64,000 nt of DNA. It comes from Desulfobulbaceae bacterium. GTDB taxonomy: Bacteria > Bacteroidota > Ignavibacteria > Kapaibacteriales > UBA2268. How positions within the stretch are numbered: the stretch's first letter is position 1; each line of letters starts with the position of its first letter. Shown piece by piece: positions 2,820 through 9,270 of the stretch. A program made the position numbers and the translations under genes. The notes below the pieces were generated by a model, which ran no database searches, was not told the origin of the DNA, and saw nothing but the letters and a program-made list of their open reading frames with translations. The DNA is taken from positions 11,520 to 75,519 of the forward strand of contig JAGXRP010000058.1 of assembly GCA_018335795.1 (NCBI GenBank), given 5' to 3'.

Positions 2820-3974
2820 CTAAACTTCCTTCTTTTCTTTTTTATGAATGTTATGACCACCACGACCCGGTGACCAATTAAAATTTATACTATTTAACTG
2901 TCTGATTTGTTCTTCTGTTAATTGATAATTAAAATGTCCTTTTTTAACTTTCCTTATATAACGCACCCACTCTGATAATTTTCTATTTTCATTCGGAATT
3001 GAAATGTTGCCATTTTCCTCATAAAACTTTTTAAGTAATTTAAAGTTCAATTCCCAATTGTGTTCCTCCCAATGCCATATAAATCCAATTTCATTTAATC
3101 TTCGTTTTTTATCTTCCGGCAATTCACCTCTTTTCGTACGTTGACGATGTACCCAATAATAGAATAATCTGTCTTCGTAATTTACAGGAACATGACAGTG
3201 ACCATACTTATTTTTAAATTCTAACATTTTATTAAAATTTAATTCCCAATCATTCTCGAGAATTGATTCTTTAAGGTTAAAATTAAAATTAATGTTATTG
3301 AGTAATAAAATTTTATCTTTACTCAGCATATTGCGATTATAATACCAAATTTGTTTGCAACACCATCTGTTTAACCGATTCAAACTTTGCCCATTATAGC
3401 CTTGCGTCATATCCCGTTGAACGTAGGCAACACCGTGTTCTTCATAGTAATCTTTCAGCCAACCATACATTTCATCCCATTTATGCCGTTTAATTCCCCA
3501 GTCAAATTCAAGTTCATCAAGAAGTCTAATTCTCTCATCAGAAAGTCTTTTCTTGTGATAGCGCTGTTCTCCGACCCATTTGCCAAGCTTAAAATATTCA
3601 TTATCATATTTTGGAACATTACTATGACCAAATTTATTTTTATAATCTAATAATTCCTCATATCTTCTATGCCAGTAAGTATCAAGTGGTTCAAATAAAA
3701 AACCTGCATCCTGGAGTTGTTTAAATCTCCAGTCTTTCAGCAATCCTCTTCTTGCTTGTACTCTTTGAGTATTTGCCCATCTTGCAATAATTCCTATTTC
3801 GGGAGTAAATCTTGGACTTTCCGGCTCACAAGCTATTCTTTGATGTCCGTTTTTGCGAACAATTTCTTGCCATTTATTTAGTTTTTCTATCCATATTAAA
3901 TCCCATTTTTCATGAAGGGTCAATTCATCAACAGCGTAAACTTTTCGCCTATTTCTTACGACTACTTTAGCCAT
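2820..3974 (-). CDS. Helicase-associated (HA) domain repeat protein (five tandem HA domains), co-operonic with type IIG RM enzyme
   Basis: Five ~65-aa repeats each with W..(F/Y)..L..(F/Y)...GH..VP......LG.WV..QR........L...R...L..(I/L)GF.W signature of PF03457; start codon overlaps stop of upstream gene at 3974. Confidence 0.75.
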   Translation of the reverse strand: MAKVVVRNRRKVYAVDELTLHEKWDLIWIEKLNKWQEIVRKNGHQRIACEPESPRFTPEIGIIARWANTQRVQARRGLLKDWRFKQLQDAGFLFEPLDTYWHRRYEELLDYKNKFGHSNVPKYDNEYFKLGKWVGEQRYHKKRLSDERIRLLDELEFDWGIKRHKWDEMYGWLKDYYEEHGVAYVQRDMTQGYNGQSLNRLNRWCCKQIWYYNRNMLSKDKILLLNNINFNFNLKESILENDWELNFNKMLEFKNKYGHCHVPVNYEDRLFYYWVHRQRTKRGELPEDKKRRLNEIGFIWHWEEHNWELNFKLLKKFYEENGNISIPNENRKLSEWVRYIRKVKKGHFNYQLTEEQIRQLNSINFNWSPGRGGHNIHKKEKKEV

Positions 3975-6900
3975 TATTCTCCCTCCACAATCCTTATTTC
4001 TTCATCGCTCAATTCGTAGAGCTGATAGACGAGTTGGTCTATTGTGCGGTCGGTTTGGTTGATAATTGCTTTGATTTCCTGCGCTTTCGATGTCATTCGG
4101 GTTAGGCGTTCCGACCAGTCTTCTTTGTGTACGCCTTTGAGTTCGATTTTTAGCTTGCGGAGTTCGGCGGTGAAGTCTGCCCAACTGAGTTCGTACCAAT
4201 TTTGCAGTTTGGTGCTTAGTTTTTCGATGCTGAAATCTGCTTTCAGTAGGTCAAGAAATTTATTCTTTACATCCTGCAGCTCTTTATTTTTCTCAAGCAT
4301 AATATCGGCAAGCTCTATGAATGGGACTTGTGCTTCAGGAGATATGTTTGGAATGGGTAATTCTTTACATTGTCCAAGTTTTGCTTTTGGAAAAACATTG
4401 TCGAATTCTGAAAAATTGAATTTAAAGTAATAACCTAATAAAGTTGAATTCAATATTGTAAGAATAAATCTATAATCATAATTTGAATCTTCTGAAATTA
4501 ATTTGCAAACATGAGCAGTATTTTTTGTGGTGTAGTCATCACTTACAAATGTAGCAATAATACCCCTTGTATCAGGTATTTCTCTAATAATTATTCGATC
4601 TCCAATAAAAATATCTTTCTTTCTAGGAGCCGCTAACCATTCACCATATTTAATGTACTCATTCATCCAATCAATTTGATACCTTTTAATATTATTCCCA
4701 GATAGATGTTTCAAATAATCATCAGATATTTTATAATTTGAATTAAATACTTTATTAATTACATCGGATGAGGTTTGTTTTGGAATACCTTTCCCAATCT
4801 CATATTCTTTCAAACCACTATAAAGATTACATATAGAATTTAACTTTATGCTATTTTGATTTACTTTTTCAATTAGCTTTTTTGTTGAGTCATTTTGAAA
4901 TAATTGAAAATCTCCATGTTCTTTGATGTTATCTTGTATAATCTCGGATGATTTAGTAATATTATTATTTATTAGTTCGGATGTCTGAATTATATTATTT
5001 TCAACGTACAACTTTTTAGCTATAATTATTGAATTATCAACCTTAATTCCTTCGAATACTCCCATTGGTAATATTACTAAATCATTAATCGTATGTTCTG
5101 ATAGTATTGATGTTCTAAAATTAACTAATGTTAAATTATTTATCCAAGAGTTTGGAATAATTAACCCAAGAGTTCCATTTAATGATAACAAATCAAATGA
5201 AAGTTTTGTAAATAAAAGGTATAAATCTAATTGATTTTTTTGAAGATTATACTTTAAACTTAAATAATCACTTTGAATTGATATATCTTTATTATCAATA
5301 TTAGTAACATACGGTGGATTGCCAATAACGACATCGAAGCCGCCGGAATATTCTAATTTATCATTTATTTGAGCATCGGCTTGTGCATTATCCTTATTTA
5401 TCAATAAATACAAACGGTCAACTTCATCCATTATAGAATTACACACACCCTCAAAACTGTTCATCACTTCTAAATTATTGAATCTTATAACTTTAATGCC
5501 ATAATGATTTAATATTTCGGAACGGACACTGTCGTATTCAAGCCCCTCATCACTAAAATGCGAATCGCCGTCAATTTCGATTGCCAACTTCACCTCGGCA
5601 ATATAAAAATCAACGATATAATTGTCAATAGTTCTCTGCCTTAAAACTCTGAATTTGAAATCATGCAGAAAGTGATACCAAAGCTTTTTCTCGGGCGCTG
5701 TCATATTTTTCCTCAACTCTTTCGCCCTATCAATGAGTTTCGGATTATACGGCAAATAATATTGCGAATAAAGCAGCCCTCTTTTGATAATCCAATCTTT
5801 CATATGCGCATAAGAATCCCCCTTTAATTCCCCCTTGGAAAGGGGGATTTCGCCCATATCATGATTTAATTCCCCCTTGGGAAGCGGAATTTCGTCCATA
5901 TCTTCATCAAATTCGTCCATATTTTTATTTAATTCCCCCTTGGAAAGGGGGATTTCGCCCATTTCATGATTTAATTCCCCCTTGGGAAGCGGGATTTCGT
6001 CCATATCTTCATCAAATTCGTCCATATTTTGATTTAATTCCCCCTTGGAAAGGGGGTTAGGGGGATATGACTTCTCATCTATTTTGGGATATGCGCCTGA
6101 TTTTGAATTAGAATTATAAGAATCCCCCTTTAATTCCCCCTTGGAAAGGGGGATTTCGCCCATTTCTTGATTTAATTCCCCCTTTTTAAGGGGGTTAGGG
6201 GGATATGACTTCTCATCTATTTTGGGATATGCGCTTAATTTTGAATTCAAATTATAAGAATCCCCCTTTAATTCTCCCTTGGAAAGGGGGATTTCGCCCA
6301 AATAACGATTAAGTTCCCCCTTTTTAAGGGGGTTAGGGGGATATGACTTTTTAACTTTAAACACCTGCGGAAATTCCTTCGCCCAATCAAATGCTTTCTC
6401 GCCTGCTACTTCGGGGTCGTCTATCAGTGAGTTGCCGCATTTGATATTACTTGTGAGCGTGTTTAGTTTTCTGCCTTTTTGTGCAGTCCGCAGCCATAAG
6501 GAAAGTTTTGCGATTTCGACGGATTCTTCATTTATATCCACACCGAATATATTATTTTCGAGTATGTCGGTGGTAATATCGGCAAAAACTAAGCCACCAC
6601 CAAATAGCAATGCCCGCAGTTCATCGAGCTTTCTGTGTTCTTCAATTAAAAATTCGAGCGCCTGATTCAAAAATGCTCCGGAGCCGCAAGCGGGGTCAAG
6701 TATTGTGATGGTAAGTAGCCAGTTGCGATAATTTGTGATTTTTGCGTCGAGTGCAATGATTATGTTTTTATCTTTTTTGGTTCTTTCGATTGCATAATCT
6801 TCGGGGTTGATGCCGAATTGGACGCGTTTTTCAGCACATAATTTACCGACAGTATTTTCAACGATATATTTTGTGATGTATTTGGGAGTATAGTAGATGC

Positions 6901-8017
6901 CGTCTTTTTTGCGTTTGGATTTTTGGGTTTCGACTTTTTCGCCCATGATTTCCGCCTGCACGTTTTCAATTTCACCAAGTGAATGCTCGAAAATATGCCC
7001 GAGAATATTGACATCGACTTCTGTATCGAAATCGTATTGGGATAGTTTCAGGGTATGACTGTATAGGATTTCATCATCAATTGTGATGTTGTCCAAAATT
7101 TCATCTTCAGCGAAAAGCCCGCCATTATAGGCAAAAACCTCCATGTGCTTATTTTTGTATCCGGTGTTCAGGTAGCCGAAATATTTTTTGAATCTGTCGT
7201 AGAGCGGCACGTATTCATCAAGTACATCACGCAGAGTTTCCCAATGATTTATAATTTCCCTGATGGAATTTGGTGGCAGAAGCAGTCGGTCCTCAGCGAA
7301 AAATACGAATAAAAATCGATCGAGAAGTTTTTGCGTCTTCTTGAAAAGCAGAAGTTTGTCGAGCTCGGGATTATTTTTTATCAGATTATTATAAATAGCG
7401 TTGCGGAATTTGGAGTAATCGGCATAAAGCTTTTTGGTAATGTCTTCTTCCTGCAATAGGGAAGATTCCTTGATTTTGAGCGGCACATCATTTAGCAGAT
7501 TATCTTTGCCTAGACAGAGCCACAGCAGAGAAAATTGATTACGCGAAAGATTGAACAAATCAAAATCAATGTAATCAACGGCATTTTGGATATAAAAACG
7601 CAATTTGCCGAAATTTGAAGTGATGACATAAATACATTTTGGATGATGATTTTTGTAGCCGAACGCCTGGGATTCGATAGTGTCAAGGTCGGTAGTGGAG
7701 AGCGATTTCAGTTCGATGACGGCAAGGGCTTCATCACCGCGTAAGATAGCACCGTCGGCTTTGCGGCTGTTGGTGATATTTTTATATTCGGAAATTAGGT
7801 TGTAATCCGGCTCGGGCTGTAGTGTATAGCCCAAAATTTTGACGAATAATTCCCGAAGGAAACCTTCCTGAAATTGTTCTTCTTTGGCAGATTTAATATT
7901 TAGCTGAATCAGCTTATTGCCGAAATATTCCATAAATGCGGAATACTTGACATCAATGAGTGTGGAATCCAACTCATTTAGATATTTTTTCTCAACTGAC
8001 TTTTGAAATAAACTCAT
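3974..8017 (-). CDS. Type IIG restriction-modification fusion enzyme (N-terminal PD-ExK nuclease + Eco57I/MmeI-like gamma-class N6-adenine MTase + TRD) carrying a ~332-aa in-frame insertion
   Basis: N-term ADGAIL...AVIELKS (PD-ExK); MTase motif I ILDPACGSGAFL; NNIFGVDINEESVEIAKLSLWL; CGNSLIDD; FDWAKEFPQVF then insertion then GGFDVVIGNPPYV (motif IV). Confidence 0.75.
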   Translation of the reverse strand: MSLFQKSVEKKYLNELDSTLIDVKYSAFMEYFGNKLIQLNIKSAKEEQFQEGFLRELFVKILGYTLQPEPDYNLISEYKNITNSRKADGAILRGDEALAVIELKSLSTTDLDTIESQAFGYKNHHPKCIYVITSNFGKLRFYIQNAVDYIDFDLFNLSRNQFSLLWLCLGKDNLLNDVPLKIKESSLLQEEDITKKLYADYSKFRNAIYNNLIKNNPELDKLLLFKKTQKLLDRFLFVFFAEDRLLLPPNSIREIINHWETLRDVLDEYVPLYDRFKKYFGYLNTGYKNKHMEVFAYNGGLFAEDEILDNITIDDEILYSHTLKLSQYDFDTEVDVNILGHIFEHSLGEIENVQAEIMGEKVETQKSKRKKDGIYYTPKYITKYIVENTVGKLCAEKRVQFGINPEDYAIERTKKDKNIIIALDAKITNYRNWLLTITILDPACGSGAFLNQALEFLIEEHRKLDELRALLFGGGLVFADITTDILENNIFGVDINEESVEIAKLSLWLRTAQKGRKLNTLTSNIKCGNSLIDDPEVAGEKAFDWAKEFPQVFKVKKSYPPNPLKKGELNRYLGEIPLSKGELKGDSYNLNSKLSAYPKIDEKSYPPNPLKKGELNQEMGEIPLSKGELKGDSYNSNSKSGAYPKIDEKSYPPNPLSKGELNQNMDEFDEDMDEIPLPKGELNHEMGEIPLSKGELNKNMDEFDEDMDEIPLPKGELNHDMGEIPLSKGELKGDSYAHMKDWIIKRGLLYSQYYLPYNPKLIDRAKELRKNMTAPEKKLWYHFLHDFKFRVLRQRTIDNYIVDFYIAEVKLAIEIDGDSHFSDEGLEYDSVRSEILNHYGIKVIRFNNLEVMNSFEGVCNSIMDEVDRLYLLINKDNAQADAQINDKLEYSGGFDVVIGNPPYVTNIDNKDISIQSDYLSLKYNLQKNQLDLYLLFTKLSFDLLSLNGTLGLIIPNSWINNLTLVNFRTSILSEHTINDLVILPMGVFEGIKVDNSIIIAKKLYVENNIIQTSELINNNITKSSEIIQDNIKEHGDFQLFQNDSTKKLIEKVNQNSIKLNSICNLYSGLKEYEIGKGIPKQTSSDVINKVFNSNYKISDDYLKHLSGNNIKRYQIDWMNEYIKYGEWLAAPRKKDIFIGDRIIIREIPDTRGIIATFVSDDYTTKNTAHVCKLISEDSNYDYRFILTILNSTLLGYYFKFNFSEFDNVFPKAKLGQCKELPIPNISPEAQVPFIELADIMLEKNKELQDVKNKFLDLLKADFSIEKLSTKLQNWYELSWADFTAELRKLKIELKGVHKEDWSERLTRMTSKAQEIKAIINQTDRTIDQLVYQLYELSDEEIRIVEGE
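5348..6343 (-). mobile_element. In-frame insertion inside the MTase catalytic domain: complete DUF559 (Vsr-like PD-(D/E)xK endonuclease) unit plus upstream repeat array
   Basis: Inserted segment translates MKDWIIKRGLLYSQYYLPYNPKLIDRAKELRKNMTAPEKKLWYHFLHDFKFRVLRQRTIDNYIVDFYIAEVKLAIEIDGDSHF...GIKVIRFNNLEVMNSFEGV (canonical DUF559 from its own Met). Flanking MTase residues FPQVF and GGFDVVIGNPPY are normally ~10 aa apart in Eco57I-family enzymes. Confidence 0.5.
5805..6343. repeat. Array of nested direct repeats (~138-bp super-unit, 46 codons) built from CCCCC-N7-GGGGG hairpins; in frame within the ORF, encoding PLSKGEL / SYPPNPLKKGEL peptide repeats
   Basis: ttaattcccccttggaaagggggatttcgcccat x5, ttaattcccccttgggaagcgggatttcgtccatatcttcatcaaattcgtccatatt x2, aagggggttagggggatatgactt... 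x3. Confidence 0.85.
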
Positions 8018-8076: not shown

Positions 8077-9270
8077 TTACCGCATGTCTTTTAGTACGAT
8101 TTCGATTTCGTGAGCTAATTTTTTGTTGACTTGGTCGAATGTGCCGCTACCGTCAATTTTGACACCATTATGCAATTTCATGTATTTTGAAATTACGGGG
8201 ACTGTTCTTGTTTCGTGGTCTTGCAAACGTTGGATGATTTTTTCGTAATTGGAATCATAGGGTCGGCTGCCATCGGTTTTGCCACGTACATTTAATCTGC
8301 GAATCAATTCTAAGGTAGGGACTTCGATTTCGATTACTTTTGTGATGGACGATGTGTATTTCTTGAGCAATCCGTCCAGAATATATGATTGAACCAATGT
8401 TCTCGGGAATCCTTTGAAAATGAAACCCTTCATGTCCTGCGATTTAGAGATTTTTTCTTCAATCAATTGGACAACTATTTCATCGGGGACTAATTGACCG
8501 ATTTGGTCGGGGTTTAGAGTGCCACTATCATAAAGCTTTTTAATTTGGATTCCGTATTCAGTTTGCATTTCAACTTCGCTTTCTAACATATCGCCGGCTG
8601 AAAGGTATTCGAGACCGAATTTTTCGGCTAATGCTCTGCCTTGGGCGCTACGTCCCGAGCCCGGATAGCCGAATAGAACGACATTGAGCAAGCTCTTGCT
8701 GAGTTCTTCTTTGACGATTTCGGTGATTTGGTCTTTGACACCTTTGATGTCCAAAAGTCCATTGACCTCTTTGTAATTGCCGCGGTCTTTGAAAAATTTG
8801 AGCACGGGCAACGTTTTTTGGTTGTATTCTTGCAATCGTGTTCGGATTACGCTTTCGTTGTCGTCGGAGCGGCTCGAAGATTTTCCTCTGCCGAGAAGCC
8901 TTTTGACGGATTCTTCTTCAGGCACATCAATGCTGATTAGGCAATTTAGCGAGGTGTTGAGCTTGAGCATCAAGCCTTCGAGTATATAGGCTTGGACGTA
9001 GGTACGCGGGAAGCCGTCGAAAAGAAAGCCGTTGAATGAGGTATTTTCGGTGATTGTCTTTTCAATTATTTGGACTATGATTTCGTCAGAAACCAAGCCG
9101 CCGGACGCGATGACGCTTTTAACTTCTTTGCCGATTGGCGTATCGAGTGAGATTTCATTTCGGAGCAAATCGCCTGTCGAAATGTAGAATAAATTGTATT
9201 TCTTAATTAAATACTCTGACTGTGTTCCTTTCCCTGCACCCGGAGGTCCAAATAGTGCTATGTTCAACAT
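8077..9270 (-). CDS. adk: Tandem-duplicated (fused) adenylate kinase; second domain has degenerate P-loop
   Basis: Domain 1: FGPPGAGKGTQ, LFDGFPRT. Domain 2 directly fused: FGYPGSGRSAQG (Walker-A Lys->Arg, GT->SA), FKGFPRT retained; both short-LID type. Confidence 0.85.
   Translation of the reverse strand: MLNIALFGPPGAGKGTQSEYLIKKYNLFYISTGDLLRNEISLDTPIGKEVKSVIASGGLVSDEIIVQIIEKTITENTSFNGFLFDGFPRTYVQAYILEGLMLKLNTSLNCLISIDVPEEESVKRLLGRGKSSSRSDDNESVIRTRLQEYNQKTLPVLKFFKDRGNYKEVNGLLDIKGVKDQITEIVKEELSKSLLNVVLFGYPGSGRSAQGRALAEKFGLEYLSAGDMLESEVEMQTEYGIQIKKLYDSGTLNPDQIGQLVPDEIVVQLIEEKISKSQDMKGFIFKGFPRTLVQSYILDGLLKKYTSSITKVIEIEVPTLELIRRLNVRGKTDGSRPYDSNYEKIIQRLQDHETRTVPVISKYMKLHNGVKIDGSGTFDQVNKKLAHEIEIVLKDMR

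What the first reader, a model, noticed from the sequence alone, without database searches (positions are those of the whole stretch)
5805..6343. Nested coding repeat array of C5/G5 hairpins inside the RM ORF
Three interleaved repeat motifs (34, 58 and ~75 bp) form a ~138-bp super-unit repeated about twice, with extra partial copies. Each motif carries CCCCC-TTGGAAA-GGGGG or CCCCC-TTTTTAA-GGGGG-TTA-GGGGG. On the coding (minus) strand they encode low-complexity acidic peptides (IPLSKGEL, MDEFDEDMDE, SYPPNPLKKGEL). G5/C5 tracts are striking against 38% GC. They predict strong hairpins and G4/i-motif structures in DNA and mRNA, and the repeat number could vary by slippage (a phase- or length-variable linker).
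Basis: seen in the sequence. Interest (0 to 1): 0.5.

Follow-up and report, generated by a model that had tools for sequence, protein, structure and literature searches.

The report
Hairpin repeats flanking an inserted nuclease
The C5/G5 repeat array is real and is the amplified palindromic flank of a small selfish nuclease gene (DUF559) that sits in frame inside a restriction-modification gene, and across many unrelated bacteria this nuclease family is flanked by the same kind of hairpins, which suggests a partner enzyme for the long-orphan BoxC/triplex-motif repeats.

Summary
Window 5805-6349 carries nested tandem repeats, with periods of 42, 63, 105 and 138 bp. It holds 11 of the window's 13 C5+ runs and 10 of its 17 G5+ runs.

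The array lies in a 1347-aa type IIG restriction-modification ORF (3974-8017, minus strand). It is part of a roughly 336-aa insert, made of the array plus an intact DUF559 nuclease. The insert splits the methyltransferase between motif I and NPPY. Of the 120 closest orthologs, 83 have an empty site there.

The units are DNA-level elements. They are C-G-G three-block motifs in inverted pairs, the layout of E. coli BoxC/PIT/"TM" elements. Near-identical sequence is dispersed and mostly non-coding in Pseudanabaena.

In 80 metagenome loci chosen by DUF559 peptides alone, such hairpins occur at 5/kb within 150 nt of the gene. Other non-coding DNA has 0.43/kb. The hairpins have a fixed orientation and often match on the two flanks.

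DUF559 plus hairpins also sits in frame in aminoacyl-tRNA synthetases, a Mur ligase, MnmA and other restriction-modification genes.

Phase variation (ON/OFF) and G4 formation are not supported. Length variation is plausible: a related insert has 2 units against 9 here.

That DUF559 acts on the hairpins is inferred, not shown.

The parts
3974..8017 (-). Host gene: a 1347-aa type IIG restriction-modification enzyme. It has an N-terminal PD-ExK nuclease, an MmeI-type helical spacer, an Eco57I/N6-adenine methyltransferase and a TaqI_C specificity domain.
   Evidence: ORF list, translation, Pfam, PADLOC PDLC03609 at 879 bits. The database copy is P0001 = MBS4000821.1.
5348..6355 (-). In-frame foreign insert (aa 555-890), made of the hairpin array plus a DUF559 nuclease. 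It lies between KEFPQVFK and SGGFDVVIGNPPY.
   Evidence: Alignment with insert-free orthologs. DNA comparison with the empty site in L001, which reads KEFPDIMS|SGGFDV. 83 of 120 orthologs are empty at this site. The Pfam Eco57I match is split into two stretches.
5805..6349 (-). Repeat array: nine PLxKGEL-coding C5/G5 hairpins in nested tandem repeats. It is predicted to be disordered as protein.
   Evidence: Only the host frame is open; it has 0 stops and the other five frames have 7-18. AlphaFold2 pLDDT is below 50 with no secondary structure over aa ~549-732.
6017..6349 (-). 138-bp super-unit x2.4. Each unit holds one inverted pair of three-block motifs.
   Evidence: TRF. Units 1 and 2 are 126/138 identical.
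5823..6056 (-). 105-bp unit x2.2 at 97% identity. This is a recent tandem duplication inside the third pair.
   Evidence: TRF, the repeat finder family D1.
6316..6340 (+). C5-N7-G5-TTA-G5 three-block motif, the BoxC/TM type A layout. Further copies lie at 6178-6202 and 6040-6064.
   Evidence: 3 matches against 0.00 expected.
6262..6290 (-). C5-N7-G5-AATTAAA-G5 three-block motif in inverted orientation to the one above. Further copies lie at 6124-6152 and 5818-5846.
   Evidence: 3 matches against 0.00 expected.
5801..5803 (-). In-frame ATG (M739, MKDW...). It probably corresponds to the start codon of free-standing DUF559 genes.
   Evidence: The free-standing relative in L128 appears to start ATGAAAGACTGG (MKDW) just after its upstream hairpin, read from the printed flank. 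The correspondence is an inference.
5420..5734 (-). DUF559 (PF04480) Vsr/PD-(D/E)XK-like endonuclease domain, aa 762-866.
   Evidence: Pfam E = 2e-26. Matches PDB 3HRL at E = 1e-11. 28 of 28 columns conserved at 80% or more among 145 relatives are kept, including D803, E814, D816, H820, D829 and R832. pLDDT is 90-97.
6671..6697 (-). Methyltransferase motif I (DPACGSGAF), upstream of the insert.
5309..5320 (-). Methyltransferase motif IV (NPPY), downstream of the insert.

Best explanation
The array is the tandemly amplified palindromic flank of a selfish DUF559-nuclease cassette that has landed in frame in a length-tolerant segment of the methyltransferase domain of a type IIG RM gene.

The units work at the nucleic-acid level. 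They are C-run/G-run three-block motifs arranged as inverted pairs. This is the architecture of BoxC/PIT/'TM' elements, with shorter blocks.

The PLxKGEL peptides are a by-product of translation. Only stop-free copies whose length is a multiple of 3 survive inside an ORF, and they end up as a disordered loop.

Replication slippage or unequal recombination between the near-identical units changes the unit number and so the loop length.

Inferred, not shown: the DUF559 nuclease recognises or cuts these structures, and that drives spread of the cassette and of solo hairpin elements. This would parallel RayT and REP sequences, or a homing endonuclease with a multicopy target.
For: Shown:
1. It is an insert. 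The closest insert-free ortholog (P0002, 86% identity over its best local match, which covers 42% of the query) reads KEFPDIMS|SGGFDV at the site. 83 of 120 orthologs are empty.
2. The hairpins travel with DUF559. L002 has the same nuclease (P0005, 75% identity to the window protein over the best local match) at the same site with the same DNA motifs (CCCCCTAACCCCCTTAAAAAGGGGG; CCCCCTTTCCAAGGGGGAATTAAAGGGGGAT), but only 2 units.
3. The association is general and was not built into the search. The 80 metagenome loci were selected by six DUF559 peptides only.
   - C4+/G4+ hairpins occur at 5.3/kb within 150 nt of the domain and 0.18/kb beyond 300 nt.
   - Against other non-ORF DNA in the same contigs, the figures are 5.0/kb against 0.43/kb.
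   - 51/71 loci have a hairpin upstream, 41/69 downstream and 30/60 on both sides.
   - Orientation relative to the gene is C-run first in 127 cases against 13.
   - Upstream and downstream loops are identical in 12/36 loci, against 1% of between-locus pairs.
   - At protein level, in an unbiased HMMER sample, hairpin-type peptides occur at 1.5 per 100 aa in DUF559 flanks against 0.02 in background.
4. The element is DNA-level, not a protein motif. Of the copies found in other genomes, 89 of 121 lie in no open frame of 80 codons or more. Flanking hairpins lie both inside (58) and outside (81) the nuclease's open frame.
5. The cassette enters ORFs in frame repeatedly. 21 of the 150 best DUF559 relatives are embedded in larger proteins. 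By Pfam the hosts include LeuRS, other class I aaRS, a Mur ligase, MnmA, PabB-PabC, TruB, riboflavin kinase, an ELP3-like radical SAM protein, HsdS and six Type ISP enzymes. Several also carry extra solo hairpin clusters elsewhere in the same protein.
6. The nuclease looks active, with 28/28 conserved columns kept.
7. The site tolerates length. PglX has about 120 aa where P0002 has about 36, and 21 orthologs carry a RayT-type insert there.
8. An independent check in E. coli K-12. The DUF559 gene ycjD (1351407-1351760) has TMECO/BoxC element no. 9 of 23 (1351204-1351239, Table 1 of PMC4666352) 168 bp downstream. It also has degenerate copies and a duplicated 3' end.
Against: - No biochemical link between DUF559 and the hairpins exists, and none was found in the literature searched.
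- The fixed orientation, and a G-run just before the start codon in free-standing genes, also fit a purely regulatory role. That role would be ribosome-binding-site sequestration or termination, as described for phage homing-endonuclease genes (PMC2677866).
- The window has hairpins only on the upstream side of DUF559, not both.
- No other copy lies in the 64 kb, so nothing shows activity in this genome.
- Only 1 of about 115 hairpin loci in other genomes had a DUF559 gene within a few kb.
- The blocks are 5 nt long, shorter than the 6 nt or more used to define triplex motifs.
- The ORF is intact, so a beneficial or domesticated role for the insert cannot be excluded.
Confidence: 0.65

Rival explanations
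1. Domesticated fusion. The DUF559 domain is a working second nuclease of this RM enzyme, and the PLxKGEL array is a flexible linker selected at the protein level.
For: The 1347-codon frame is intact through about 1 kb of insert. The nuclease's conserved residues are kept. The array is predicted to be disordered, as linkers are. RM and MTase genes are frequent hosts of DUF559, with six Type ISP enzymes, HsdS and N6_N4 MTases among them.
Against: The same DNA motifs occur in non-coding DNA of other phyla. They flank free-standing DUF559 genes outside the reading frame. What is conserved is the palindrome, not the peptide. Only 2 of 120 orthologs have the insert, and one of them (L002) has its RM gene split into two ORFs. 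The same cassette sits in unrelated housekeeping enzymes.
Confidence: 0.12
2. Independent in-frame invasion by a MITE/RPE-like palindromic element that merely happens to lie next to DUF559. Both accumulate in a tolerant loop.
For: Solo hairpins do insert in frame without DUF559, for example IPLFKGELKGV in a threonine synthase in L010. Most dispersed copies have no DUF559 nearby. The same loop accepts other inserts.
Against: Hairpins are enriched 12- to 30-fold around DUF559 genes in 80 independent loci, with fixed orientation and matching flanks. L002 shares both nuclease and hairpins at the same site. No ortholog among the 120 has hairpins alone at this site.
Confidence: 0.1
3. Contingency locus. 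Slipped-strand changes in unit number tune or switch the RM enzyme.
For: Units are 90-97% identical. A related insert has 2 units against 9 here. BoxC/TM loci are rearrangement-prone in E. coli (PMC4666352).
Against: All periods are multiples of 3, so there is no ON/OFF switch. The array is in a disordered loop far from the specificity domain. No strain-level data exist, because the protein is alone in its 90% cluster.
Confidence: 0.08
4. G-quadruplex or i-motif regulatory element, or an assembly artefact.
For: G5 and C5 runs are dense. The sequence is a short-read MAG.
Against: No four runs lie within loops of 12 nt or less on either strand, and every run has a nearby complement favouring hairpins. 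The independent assembly L002 carries the same motifs at the same site.
Confidence: 0.03

Closest known systems
BoxC / PIT / 'TM' intrastrand-triplex motifs (Bachellier 1990s; Hoyne and Maher 2000; Holder et al. 2015, PMC4666352)
   Same: Three consecutive blocks C-G-G on one strand. The second loop is TTA, as in TMECO type A. Two motif types are paired in inverted orientation. Loci are prone to rearrangement. The family is widespread in Enterobacteria and Cyanobacteria. The Pseudanabaena relatives (CCCTCCCC..GGGGAGGGTTAGGGTGGGG) are almost the E. coli consensus.
   Different: Blocks are 5 nt rather than 9, and loop 1 is 7 nt. Here the motifs are inside an ORF and translated. All copies are in one tandem array rather than dispersed. 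Holder et al. report that the E. coli elements are always intergenic and found no link to mobile elements. They do not mention a nuclease partner.
REP/REPIN sequences and their RayT (Y1/HUH) transposases
   Same: Short palindromes, often as inverted doublets, flank the gene of a nuclease and are otherwise dispersed. RayT-type inserts with in-frame REP-like hairpins occupy this very site in 21 of 120 orthologs.
   Different: The enzyme here is DUF559 (Vsr/PD-(D/E)XK-like), not a Y1 transposase. No GTAG heads are present, and CGTC occurs only in the spacers between hairpins, not at their heads. No activity is known.
Rickettsia palindromic elements (RPE; Ogata et al. 2000, as reviewed in PMC10969869)
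   Same: Palindromic selfish DNA inserted in frame into unrelated protein-coding genes and tolerated as extra peptide segments.
   Different: RPEs are about 150-bp single elements in Rickettsia with no associated nuclease gene. Here the units are about 25-80 bp, G/C-run based, tandemly amplified and coupled to DUF559.
Vsr-like (EDxHD, I-Bth0305I) homing endonucleases and 'fractured genes' (Dassa et al. 2009, PMC2677866; PMC3239194)
   Same: A Vsr-fold nuclease gene invades conserved genes, with hairpins immediately upstream of the nuclease start codon.
   Different: Those sit in introns or inteins, or split the host into two ORFs. Here the cassette is read through in frame with no splicing element (no Hint domain; no Rfam intron). 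That family is only distantly related to DUF559.
Inteins
   Same: An in-frame insertion carrying an endonuclease inside conserved enzymes, including aaRS and RM genes.
   Different: No Hint/splicing domain, no C/S...HN|C/S/T junctions (here ..LEY|SGG), and no evidence of removal.

Membership tests
BoxC/PIT/TM intrastrand triplex motif | Three consecutive blocks (C-G-G, class II) on one strand | tested here: met
   C5-N7-G5-TTA-G5 x3 on the + strand and C5-N7-G5-AATTAAA-G5 x3 on the - strand, against 0.00 expected.
BoxC/PIT/TM intrastrand triplex motif | Block (stem) length of at least 6 nt (ITxF), or 9 nt in TMECO, and loops of 1-6 nt | tested here: not met
   Blocks are 5 nt and loop 1 is 7 nt. 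The definition is in PMC4666352.
BoxC/PIT/TM intrastrand triplex motif | Second loop TTA (type A), and pairing of two motif types in inverted orientation | tested here: met
   TTA is present in three copies. Each is paired with an inverted AATTAAA-type copy 17-23 nt away. The E. coli description is.
BoxC/PIT/TM intrastrand triplex motif | Multicopy, dispersed, intergenic distribution in the genome | tested here: not met
   All copies are in one intragenic array, with none elsewhere in the 64 kb. Related sequence is dispersed and mostly non-coding in Pseudanabaena.
BoxC/PIT/TM intrastrand triplex motif | Triplex formation by the single strand | not testable with these tools
   This needs CD/NMR, as in PMC4666352.
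REP/REPIN-RayT system | Associated Y1/HUH tyrosine transposase (PF01797) | tested here: not met
   Pfam finds DUF559 in this ORF, not PF01797. PF01797 is present at the same site in other orthologs.
REP/REPIN-RayT system | Palindromic repeats flank the nuclease gene and occur as inverted doublets | tested here: met
   for DUF559 genes in general. In the window the repeats are on the upstream side only.
REP/REPIN-RayT system | Conserved GTAG or CGTC head on the palindrome | tested here: not met
   There is no GTAG/CTAC. CGTC occurs only in the MDE spacer codons.
Intein | Hint splicing domain and canonical junction residues | tested here: not met
   No Hint family appears in Pfam. The junctions read FKVKK|SYPP and KLEY|SGGF.
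Self-splicing intron carrying a homing endonuclease | Group I/II intron RNA structure around the nuclease ORF | tested here: not met
   No Rfam match reaches a gathering score. The insert is read through in frame.
DUF559 (PF04480) / Vsr-like PD-(D/E)XK nucleases | Domain match above the curated cut-off with conserved acidic/His residues | tested here: met
   92 bits against a cut-off of 20.6. 3HRL at E = 1e-11. 28/28 conserved columns kept.
Type IIG RM enzyme (MmeI/Eco57I-like), the host | One chain with a PD-ExK nuclease, a gamma-class N6A methyltransferase (motif I, NPPY) and a specificity domain | tested here: met
   Activity was not tested.
Phase-variable (contingency) repeat | Unit length not divisible by 3 (or promoter location), so that slippage switches expression | tested here: not met
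   The periods are 42, 63, 105 and 138.
Phase-variable (contingency) repeat | Copy-number polymorphism among close strains | not testable with these tools
   The protein is alone in its 90% cluster and no contig is on record. The only comparison is with a 75%-identical relative, which has 2 units against 9.

The most novel reading that the evidence does not exclude
DUF559 nucleases are the missing partner enzymes of BoxC/PIT/'TM'-type G/C-run palindromes. Together they would form a widespread REP-RayT-like, or multicopy-target homing, system.

Its cassettes (element-nuclease-element) and solo elements colonise intergenic DNA. Uniquely, they also colonise the reading frames of essential and defence genes, as non-splicing, translated insertions.

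The window's array would then be an amplified end of such a cassette.
Probability: 0.35. Interest if true: 0.8.

Novelty: new variant of a known kind. Interest (0 to 1): 0.6.

Why it matters
BoxC/PIT/TM elements have been known since the 1990s. They are linked to genome instability, but have had no mechanism of spread and no associated protein (PMC4666352). DUF559 is a very large family (17,397 cluster representatives at E <= 0.001) with no assigned function.

A reproducible physical association between the two gives a concrete, cheap experiment, and E. coli YcjD with its TMECO elements is a tractable model.

The finding also shows a class of protein insertions that is neither intein nor intron. 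These nuclease-plus-palindrome cassettes are read through in frame in aaRS, Mur ligase and RM genes.

This matters in three ways:
- Annotation. Such proteins are currently named 'DUF559 domain-containing protein' and their host function is missed.
- How selfish DNA is tolerated inside essential genes.
- How RM enzymes acquire extra domains.

For this window alone, the practical message is that the RM gene is interrupted by selfish DNA and may or may not still work.

Tried and rejected
- Rfam, permissive on 5000-6800 and at gathering thresholds on 18 related loci: nothing.
- Intein or intron: no Hint domain, no intron model, and in-frame read-through.
- G4 or i-motif: no run geometry compatible with loops of 12 nt or less.
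- Phage carriage: 0 exact hits of the 24-nt motif in viral contigs.
- Strain-level copy-number comparison: impossible. No contig is on record for P0001 and its cluster has one member. The metagenome scan returned only relatives at 63% identity or less.
- The DUF559 cassette replaced an older RayT insert (both end ...KLEY): local DNA alignment shows homology only from GGCGGCTTCGATG onward, so this is unsupported.
- RayT genes near the dispersed hairpins in other genomes: none.
- A covariance model of the hairpin family: not built, because the stems are invariant C:G runs (no covariation to score) and spacers vary from 0 to 70 nt.
- E. coli presence/absence of ycjD bounded by hairpins: the locus is variable from about 40 bp before TMECO no. 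9 in about 2000 genomes. In Nissle this is a different gene island, not a clean empty site.
- The AlphaFold2 model of the methyltransferase part was of low confidence (mean pLDDT 59.6), so the insertion point was not mapped on a structure. The length variability of the segment was instead inferred from the PglX alignment.
Full report
**1. Observation**

Window 5805-6349 contains nested tandem repeats. Tandem Repeats Finder reports a 138-bp unit x2.4 (6017-6349, 90% matches). It also reports a 105-bp unit x2.2 (5823-6056, 97%) and 42- and 63-bp sub-periods. The repeat finder gives the same families plus inverted repeats between the two hairpin types.

CCCCCTTNNAANGGGGG with one mismatch allowed matches 13 times, all within 5830-6332. 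Shuffles predict 0.01.

The 539 bp hold 11 of the 13 C5+ runs and 10 of the 17 G5+ runs of the whole 38%-GC window.

The only correction concerns unit sizes: all periods are multiples of three.

**2. Where the array sits**

The ORF 3974-8017 (minus strand, 1347 aa) is a type IIG restriction-modification enzyme. Pfam finds MmeI_hel, MmeI_Mtase, Eco57I, N6_Mtase and TaqI_C. PADLOC's REase_MTase_IIG model scores 879 bits, and its first matched stretch ends at aa 554.

The Eco57I methyltransferase match is split in two. Between the halves Pfam finds DUF559 (PF04480, aa 762-866, E = 2e-26).

Motif I (DPACGSGAF, aa 441-449) lies before the array. Motif IV (NPPY, aa 900-903) lies after DUF559.

A search of 5.8 billion proteins found the window's own protein (MBS4000821.1, a MAG labelled Desulfobulbaceae) and thousands of orthologs. 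Among the best 120:
- 83 have nothing between KEFPxIF and GGFDVVIGNPPY;
- 21 carry a RayT-type Y1 transposase domain (PF01797) there;
- one carries a 77-aa helical insert;
- two carry DUF559, namely the window and P0005;
- 13 did not match the junction pattern used.

At DNA level the empty site in L001 reads KEFPDIMS|SGGFDV. The window has about 1 kb more, aa 555-890, window 5348-6355. So the array is the first two-thirds of a foreign insert, and the rest of that insert is a nuclease gene.

**3. The array belongs with the nuclease**

L002 encodes P0005, which is 75% identical to the window protein. It carries DUF559 at the same site. It is preceded by the same DNA motifs, CCCCCTAACCCCCTTAAAAAGGGGG and CCCCCTTTCCAAGGGGGAATTAAAGGGGGAT, but has only two hairpins.

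The in-frame ATG at 5801-5803 (MKDW...) appears to match the start of free-standing relatives. L128 seems to start ATGAAAGACTGG right after its upstream hairpin, as read from the printed flank. On this reading the insert looks like a whole small gene together with its 5' flank, read through by the host frame.

I then asked whether this is general, using samples that were not chosen for hairpins.

(a) An exhaustive HMMER search with the 125-aa DUF559 domain alone found 17,397 cluster representatives at E <= 0.001.
- In the 150 best, hairpin-type peptides (P-[LPF]-x-x-G-[GE] and similar) occur at 1.5 per 100 aa in the 60-aa flanks.
- The rate is 0.016 per 100 aa inside the domain and 0.023 in insert-free RM orthologs.

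(b) A metagenome scan seeded only by six DUF559 peptides returned 80 loci with DNA.
- C4+-loop-G4+ hairpins occur at 5.3/kb within 150 nt of the domain, 1.2/kb at 150-300 nt, 0.18/kb further away and 0.07/kb inside the domain.
- Against other non-ORF DNA of the same contigs, the contrast is 5.0/kb against 0.43/kb.
- 51/71 loci have a hairpin within 200 nt upstream, 41/69 downstream and 30/60 on both sides.
- The hairpins are oriented C-run first on the nuclease's coding strand in 127 cases against 13.
- The loop sequence is identical on the two flanks in 12 of 36 loci, against 1% of between-locus pairs.
- In the best-preserved loci both flanks carry the same composite element, as direct repeats. 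In L128 it reads CCCCCTGTCCCCCCTTATTAAGGGGGGTGACCGAAGGTCGGGGGG.
- The strict four-block form is found next to DUF559 in 14 of 64 loci, and only twice in 228 kb of distant sequence.

**4. The units are DNA elements, not a protein motif**

Most are in Pseudanabaena and Tumidithrix. There the motif is the right arm of a roughly 90-nt dispersed palindrome. Its consensus is ACCCCACCCTAACCCTCCCCTTGCAAAGGGGAGGG...TTCCCCCTTTGCAAGGGGGAATTAAAGGGGGT. Other hits are in WOR-3, Latescibacterota, Bacteroidota and Marinamargulisbacteria.

Of the 121 copies found, 89 lie in no open frame of 80 codons or more. One sits in frame in a threonine synthase as IPLFKGELKGV.

Around DUF559 genes, 58 flanking hairpins fall inside the gene's open frame and 81 fall outside.

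In the window only the host frame is open across the array. It has 0 stops, and the other five frames have 7-18. This is what purifying selection on a host ORF would leave.

AlphaFold2 predicts the array as disordered, with pLDDT below 50 and no secondary structure. It predicts DUF559 as a confident separate domain, with pLDDT 90-97.

**5. Anatomy of a unit, and the closest known family**

On the plus strand there are three C5-N7-G5-TTA-G5 motifs, at 6040, 6178 and 6316. On the minus strand there are three C5-N7-G5-AATTAAA-G5 motifs, at 5818, 6124 and 6262. Neither type is expected by chance.

Each 138-bp super-unit is therefore an inverted pair of three-block C-G-G motifs. The pair folds as one long imperfect hairpin, at -16.7 to -19.7 kcal/mol as DNA with z -1.7 to -2.7. 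The 105-bp repeats are a recent duplication inside the third pair.

This is the layout of the E. coli BoxC/PIT/'TM' elements:
- The E. coli consensus is CCCTCNCCC-N3-6-GGGNGAGGG-N3-GGGNGAGGG.
- Type A has TTA as the second loop.
- Type A and type B elements are often paired in inverted orientation.
- The single strand forms a triplex in vitro.
- The loci are unusually rearranged among strains (Holder et al. 2015, PMC4666352).

The Pseudanabaena elements nearly match that consensus. The window's copies are a short-block version, with 5-nt blocks and a 7-nt first loop. They therefore fail the formal ITxF definition.

Holder et al. report that the E. coli elements are always intergenic and that they found no link to mobile elements. 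The word 'endonuclease' does not occur in their paper.

No paper in the searchable library combines BoxC or triplex terms with DUF559 or Vsr.

As an a-priori check, I looked at the DUF559 gene I knew of in E. coli K-12, ycjD:
- TMECO no. 9 of 23 lies 168 bp downstream of it.
- The gene's own 3' end runs into a degenerate C/G hairpin.
- That 3' end plus its hairpin is partly duplicated.

With 18 TMECO sites in 4.6 Mb, a site within 200 bp of one chosen gene is expected about 0.002 times. This is my arithmetic.

**6. The cassette enters reading frames repeatedly**

Of the 150 best DUF559 relatives, 21 are 250 aa or longer, with DUF559 embedded. Pfam identifies the following hosts:
- LeuRS and two other class I aaRS;
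- a Mur ligase, with DUF559 within or next to the C-terminal domain;
- MnmA, PabB-PabC, TruB and riboflavin kinase;
- an ELP3-like radical-SAM protein;
- HsdS, an N6_N4 methyltransferase and six Type ISP RM enzymes.

The inserts are usually bracketed by hairpin peptides. Several hosts (P0232, P0219, P0241, P0179) also carry solo hairpin clusters at other positions. These could be footprints left when the direct repeats recombine.

None of these has intein or intron features. Essential hosts imply that the insertions are tolerated as extra surface segments.

The site used here is naturally variable. In the alignment to BREX PglX (8C45), about 120 residues separate the two conserved blocks, where P0002 has about 36.

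**7. Mechanism: what is shown and what is inferred**

Shown:
- the array is part of an insert;
- the association of such hairpins with DUF559 genes is general, oriented and paired;
- the elements also exist without coding context;
- the nuclease copy keeps 28 of 28 conserved columns;
- unit number differs between the two known inserts.

Inferred: DUF559 recognises or cuts the folded or extruded elements, and repair or recombination spreads both cassettes and solo elements. This would be analogous to RayT with REP sequences, or to a homing endonuclease whose target is multicopy.

The main alternative for the association is regulatory. In free-standing genes a G-run sits a few nucleotides before the ATG, where a hairpin could hide a ribosome-binding site. 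This has been described for phage homing-endonuclease genes (PMC2677866). The downstream copy could act as a terminator. Identical elements on both flanks, and dispersed solo copies, argue that regulation is not the whole story.

For the host, the likeliest consequence is neutral to mildly harmful. In L002 the RM gene is split into two ORFs. In the window it is intact.

**8.

- Hairpins: supported.
- G4 or i-motif: not supported.
- Phase variation: excluded as a frame switch. Length variation is plausible, but cannot be tested at strain level.
- Other copies of the unit: none in this window, many in other genomes.

**9. Verdict**

The feature is real. It is best described as a short-block BoxC/TM-like palindromic array. 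The array belongs to a DUF559 nuclease cassette inserted in frame in a type IIG RM gene.

The kind of element is known, and so is the idea of in-frame palindromic selfish DNA (RPE). Two things appear to be undescribed in the literature I could search. One is the coupling to DUF559. The other is the read-through cassette architecture across many host genes.

Confidence is 0.65 for the overall reading. It is about 0.35 for the stronger claim that DUF559 is the enzyme that acts on these elements.

Noticed in passing
L003 6001-9723 (P0003) and 20 other orthologs (P0004, P0016, P0024, P0032, P0037, P0053 and others): A RayT-type Y1 transposase domain (PF01797) is inserted in frame at exactly the same methyltransferase site in 21 of 120 orthologs. 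REP-like hairpins are translated inside it, for example CCCCACGCTTCAGCGTGGGG read as INPTLQRGDN, and NKGLQPLV. P0004 also has a second hairpin array at another site. The conserved boundaries (KKAWHVTTATHNSR...EHAFRTEYKG) suggest an old, possibly domesticated, insertion.
   Followed up: partly
L208 4041-4407 (E. coli K-12, between fabI and ycjD): Downstream of the DUF559 gene ycjD lie a degenerate hairpin at the stop codon, a partial duplication of the gene's 3' end with a second degenerate element, and then the intact BoxC/TMECO no. 9. In about 2000 of 5426 complete E. coli genomes, colinearity breaks about 40 bp before that element. Nissle has TetR and RND efflux genes there.
   Followed up: partly
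L005-L124 (Pseudanabaena and Tumidithrix genomes): A high-copy palindromic element of about 90 nt, made of two BoxC-like arms in inverted orientation, is dispersed mostly in non-coding DNA. In L012 a free-standing DUF559 gene (3635-4015) has such elements within about 40 bp on both sides.
   Followed up: partly
L010 5172-6419: A threonine synthase gene of an uncultured bacterium carries one hairpin unit in frame (AIPLFKGELKGV) shortly before the PLP-lysine motif, with no nuclease nearby.
   Followed up: partly
L002 237-3885: The only other RM gene with the DUF559 insert at this site is called as two overlapping ORFs (1005 aa and 217 aa, the latter carrying TaqI_C). It may be frameshifted and decaying, or this may be a sequencing error.
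   Followed up: no
window 8077-9270 (-): This 397-aa ORF has two adenylate kinase (PF00406) stretches. It is an apparent tandem double ADK immediately upstream of the RM gene.
   Followed up: no
window 2820-3974 (-): This 384-aa ORF is made of five helicase-associated (HA, PF03457) repeats. Its start abuts the RM gene's stop at 3974, which suggests co-transcription. It has no PADLOC match.
   Followed up: no
window 3974-8017, and hits: The source MAG is labelled Desulfobulbaceae. The named close orthologs of the RM protein are from Bacteroidota and Ignavibacteriota/Kapaibacteria. Either the contig is mis-binned or the gene was transferred.
   Followed up: no
P0131, P0161, P0274: Several DUF559-bearing host proteins have tryptophan where glycine is expected (for example 'DWETH' and 'WNW'). 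This suggests genomes that read UGA as glycine, translated with the wrong table. These would be candidate-phyla-radiation-type hosts.
   Followed up: no
P0143: This 345-aa protein has tandem YTDGETNS repeats, a hairpin peptide (LPACGEGWGGV) and DUF559. Its flanks faintly resemble an intein-like context. Not analysed.
   Followed up: no
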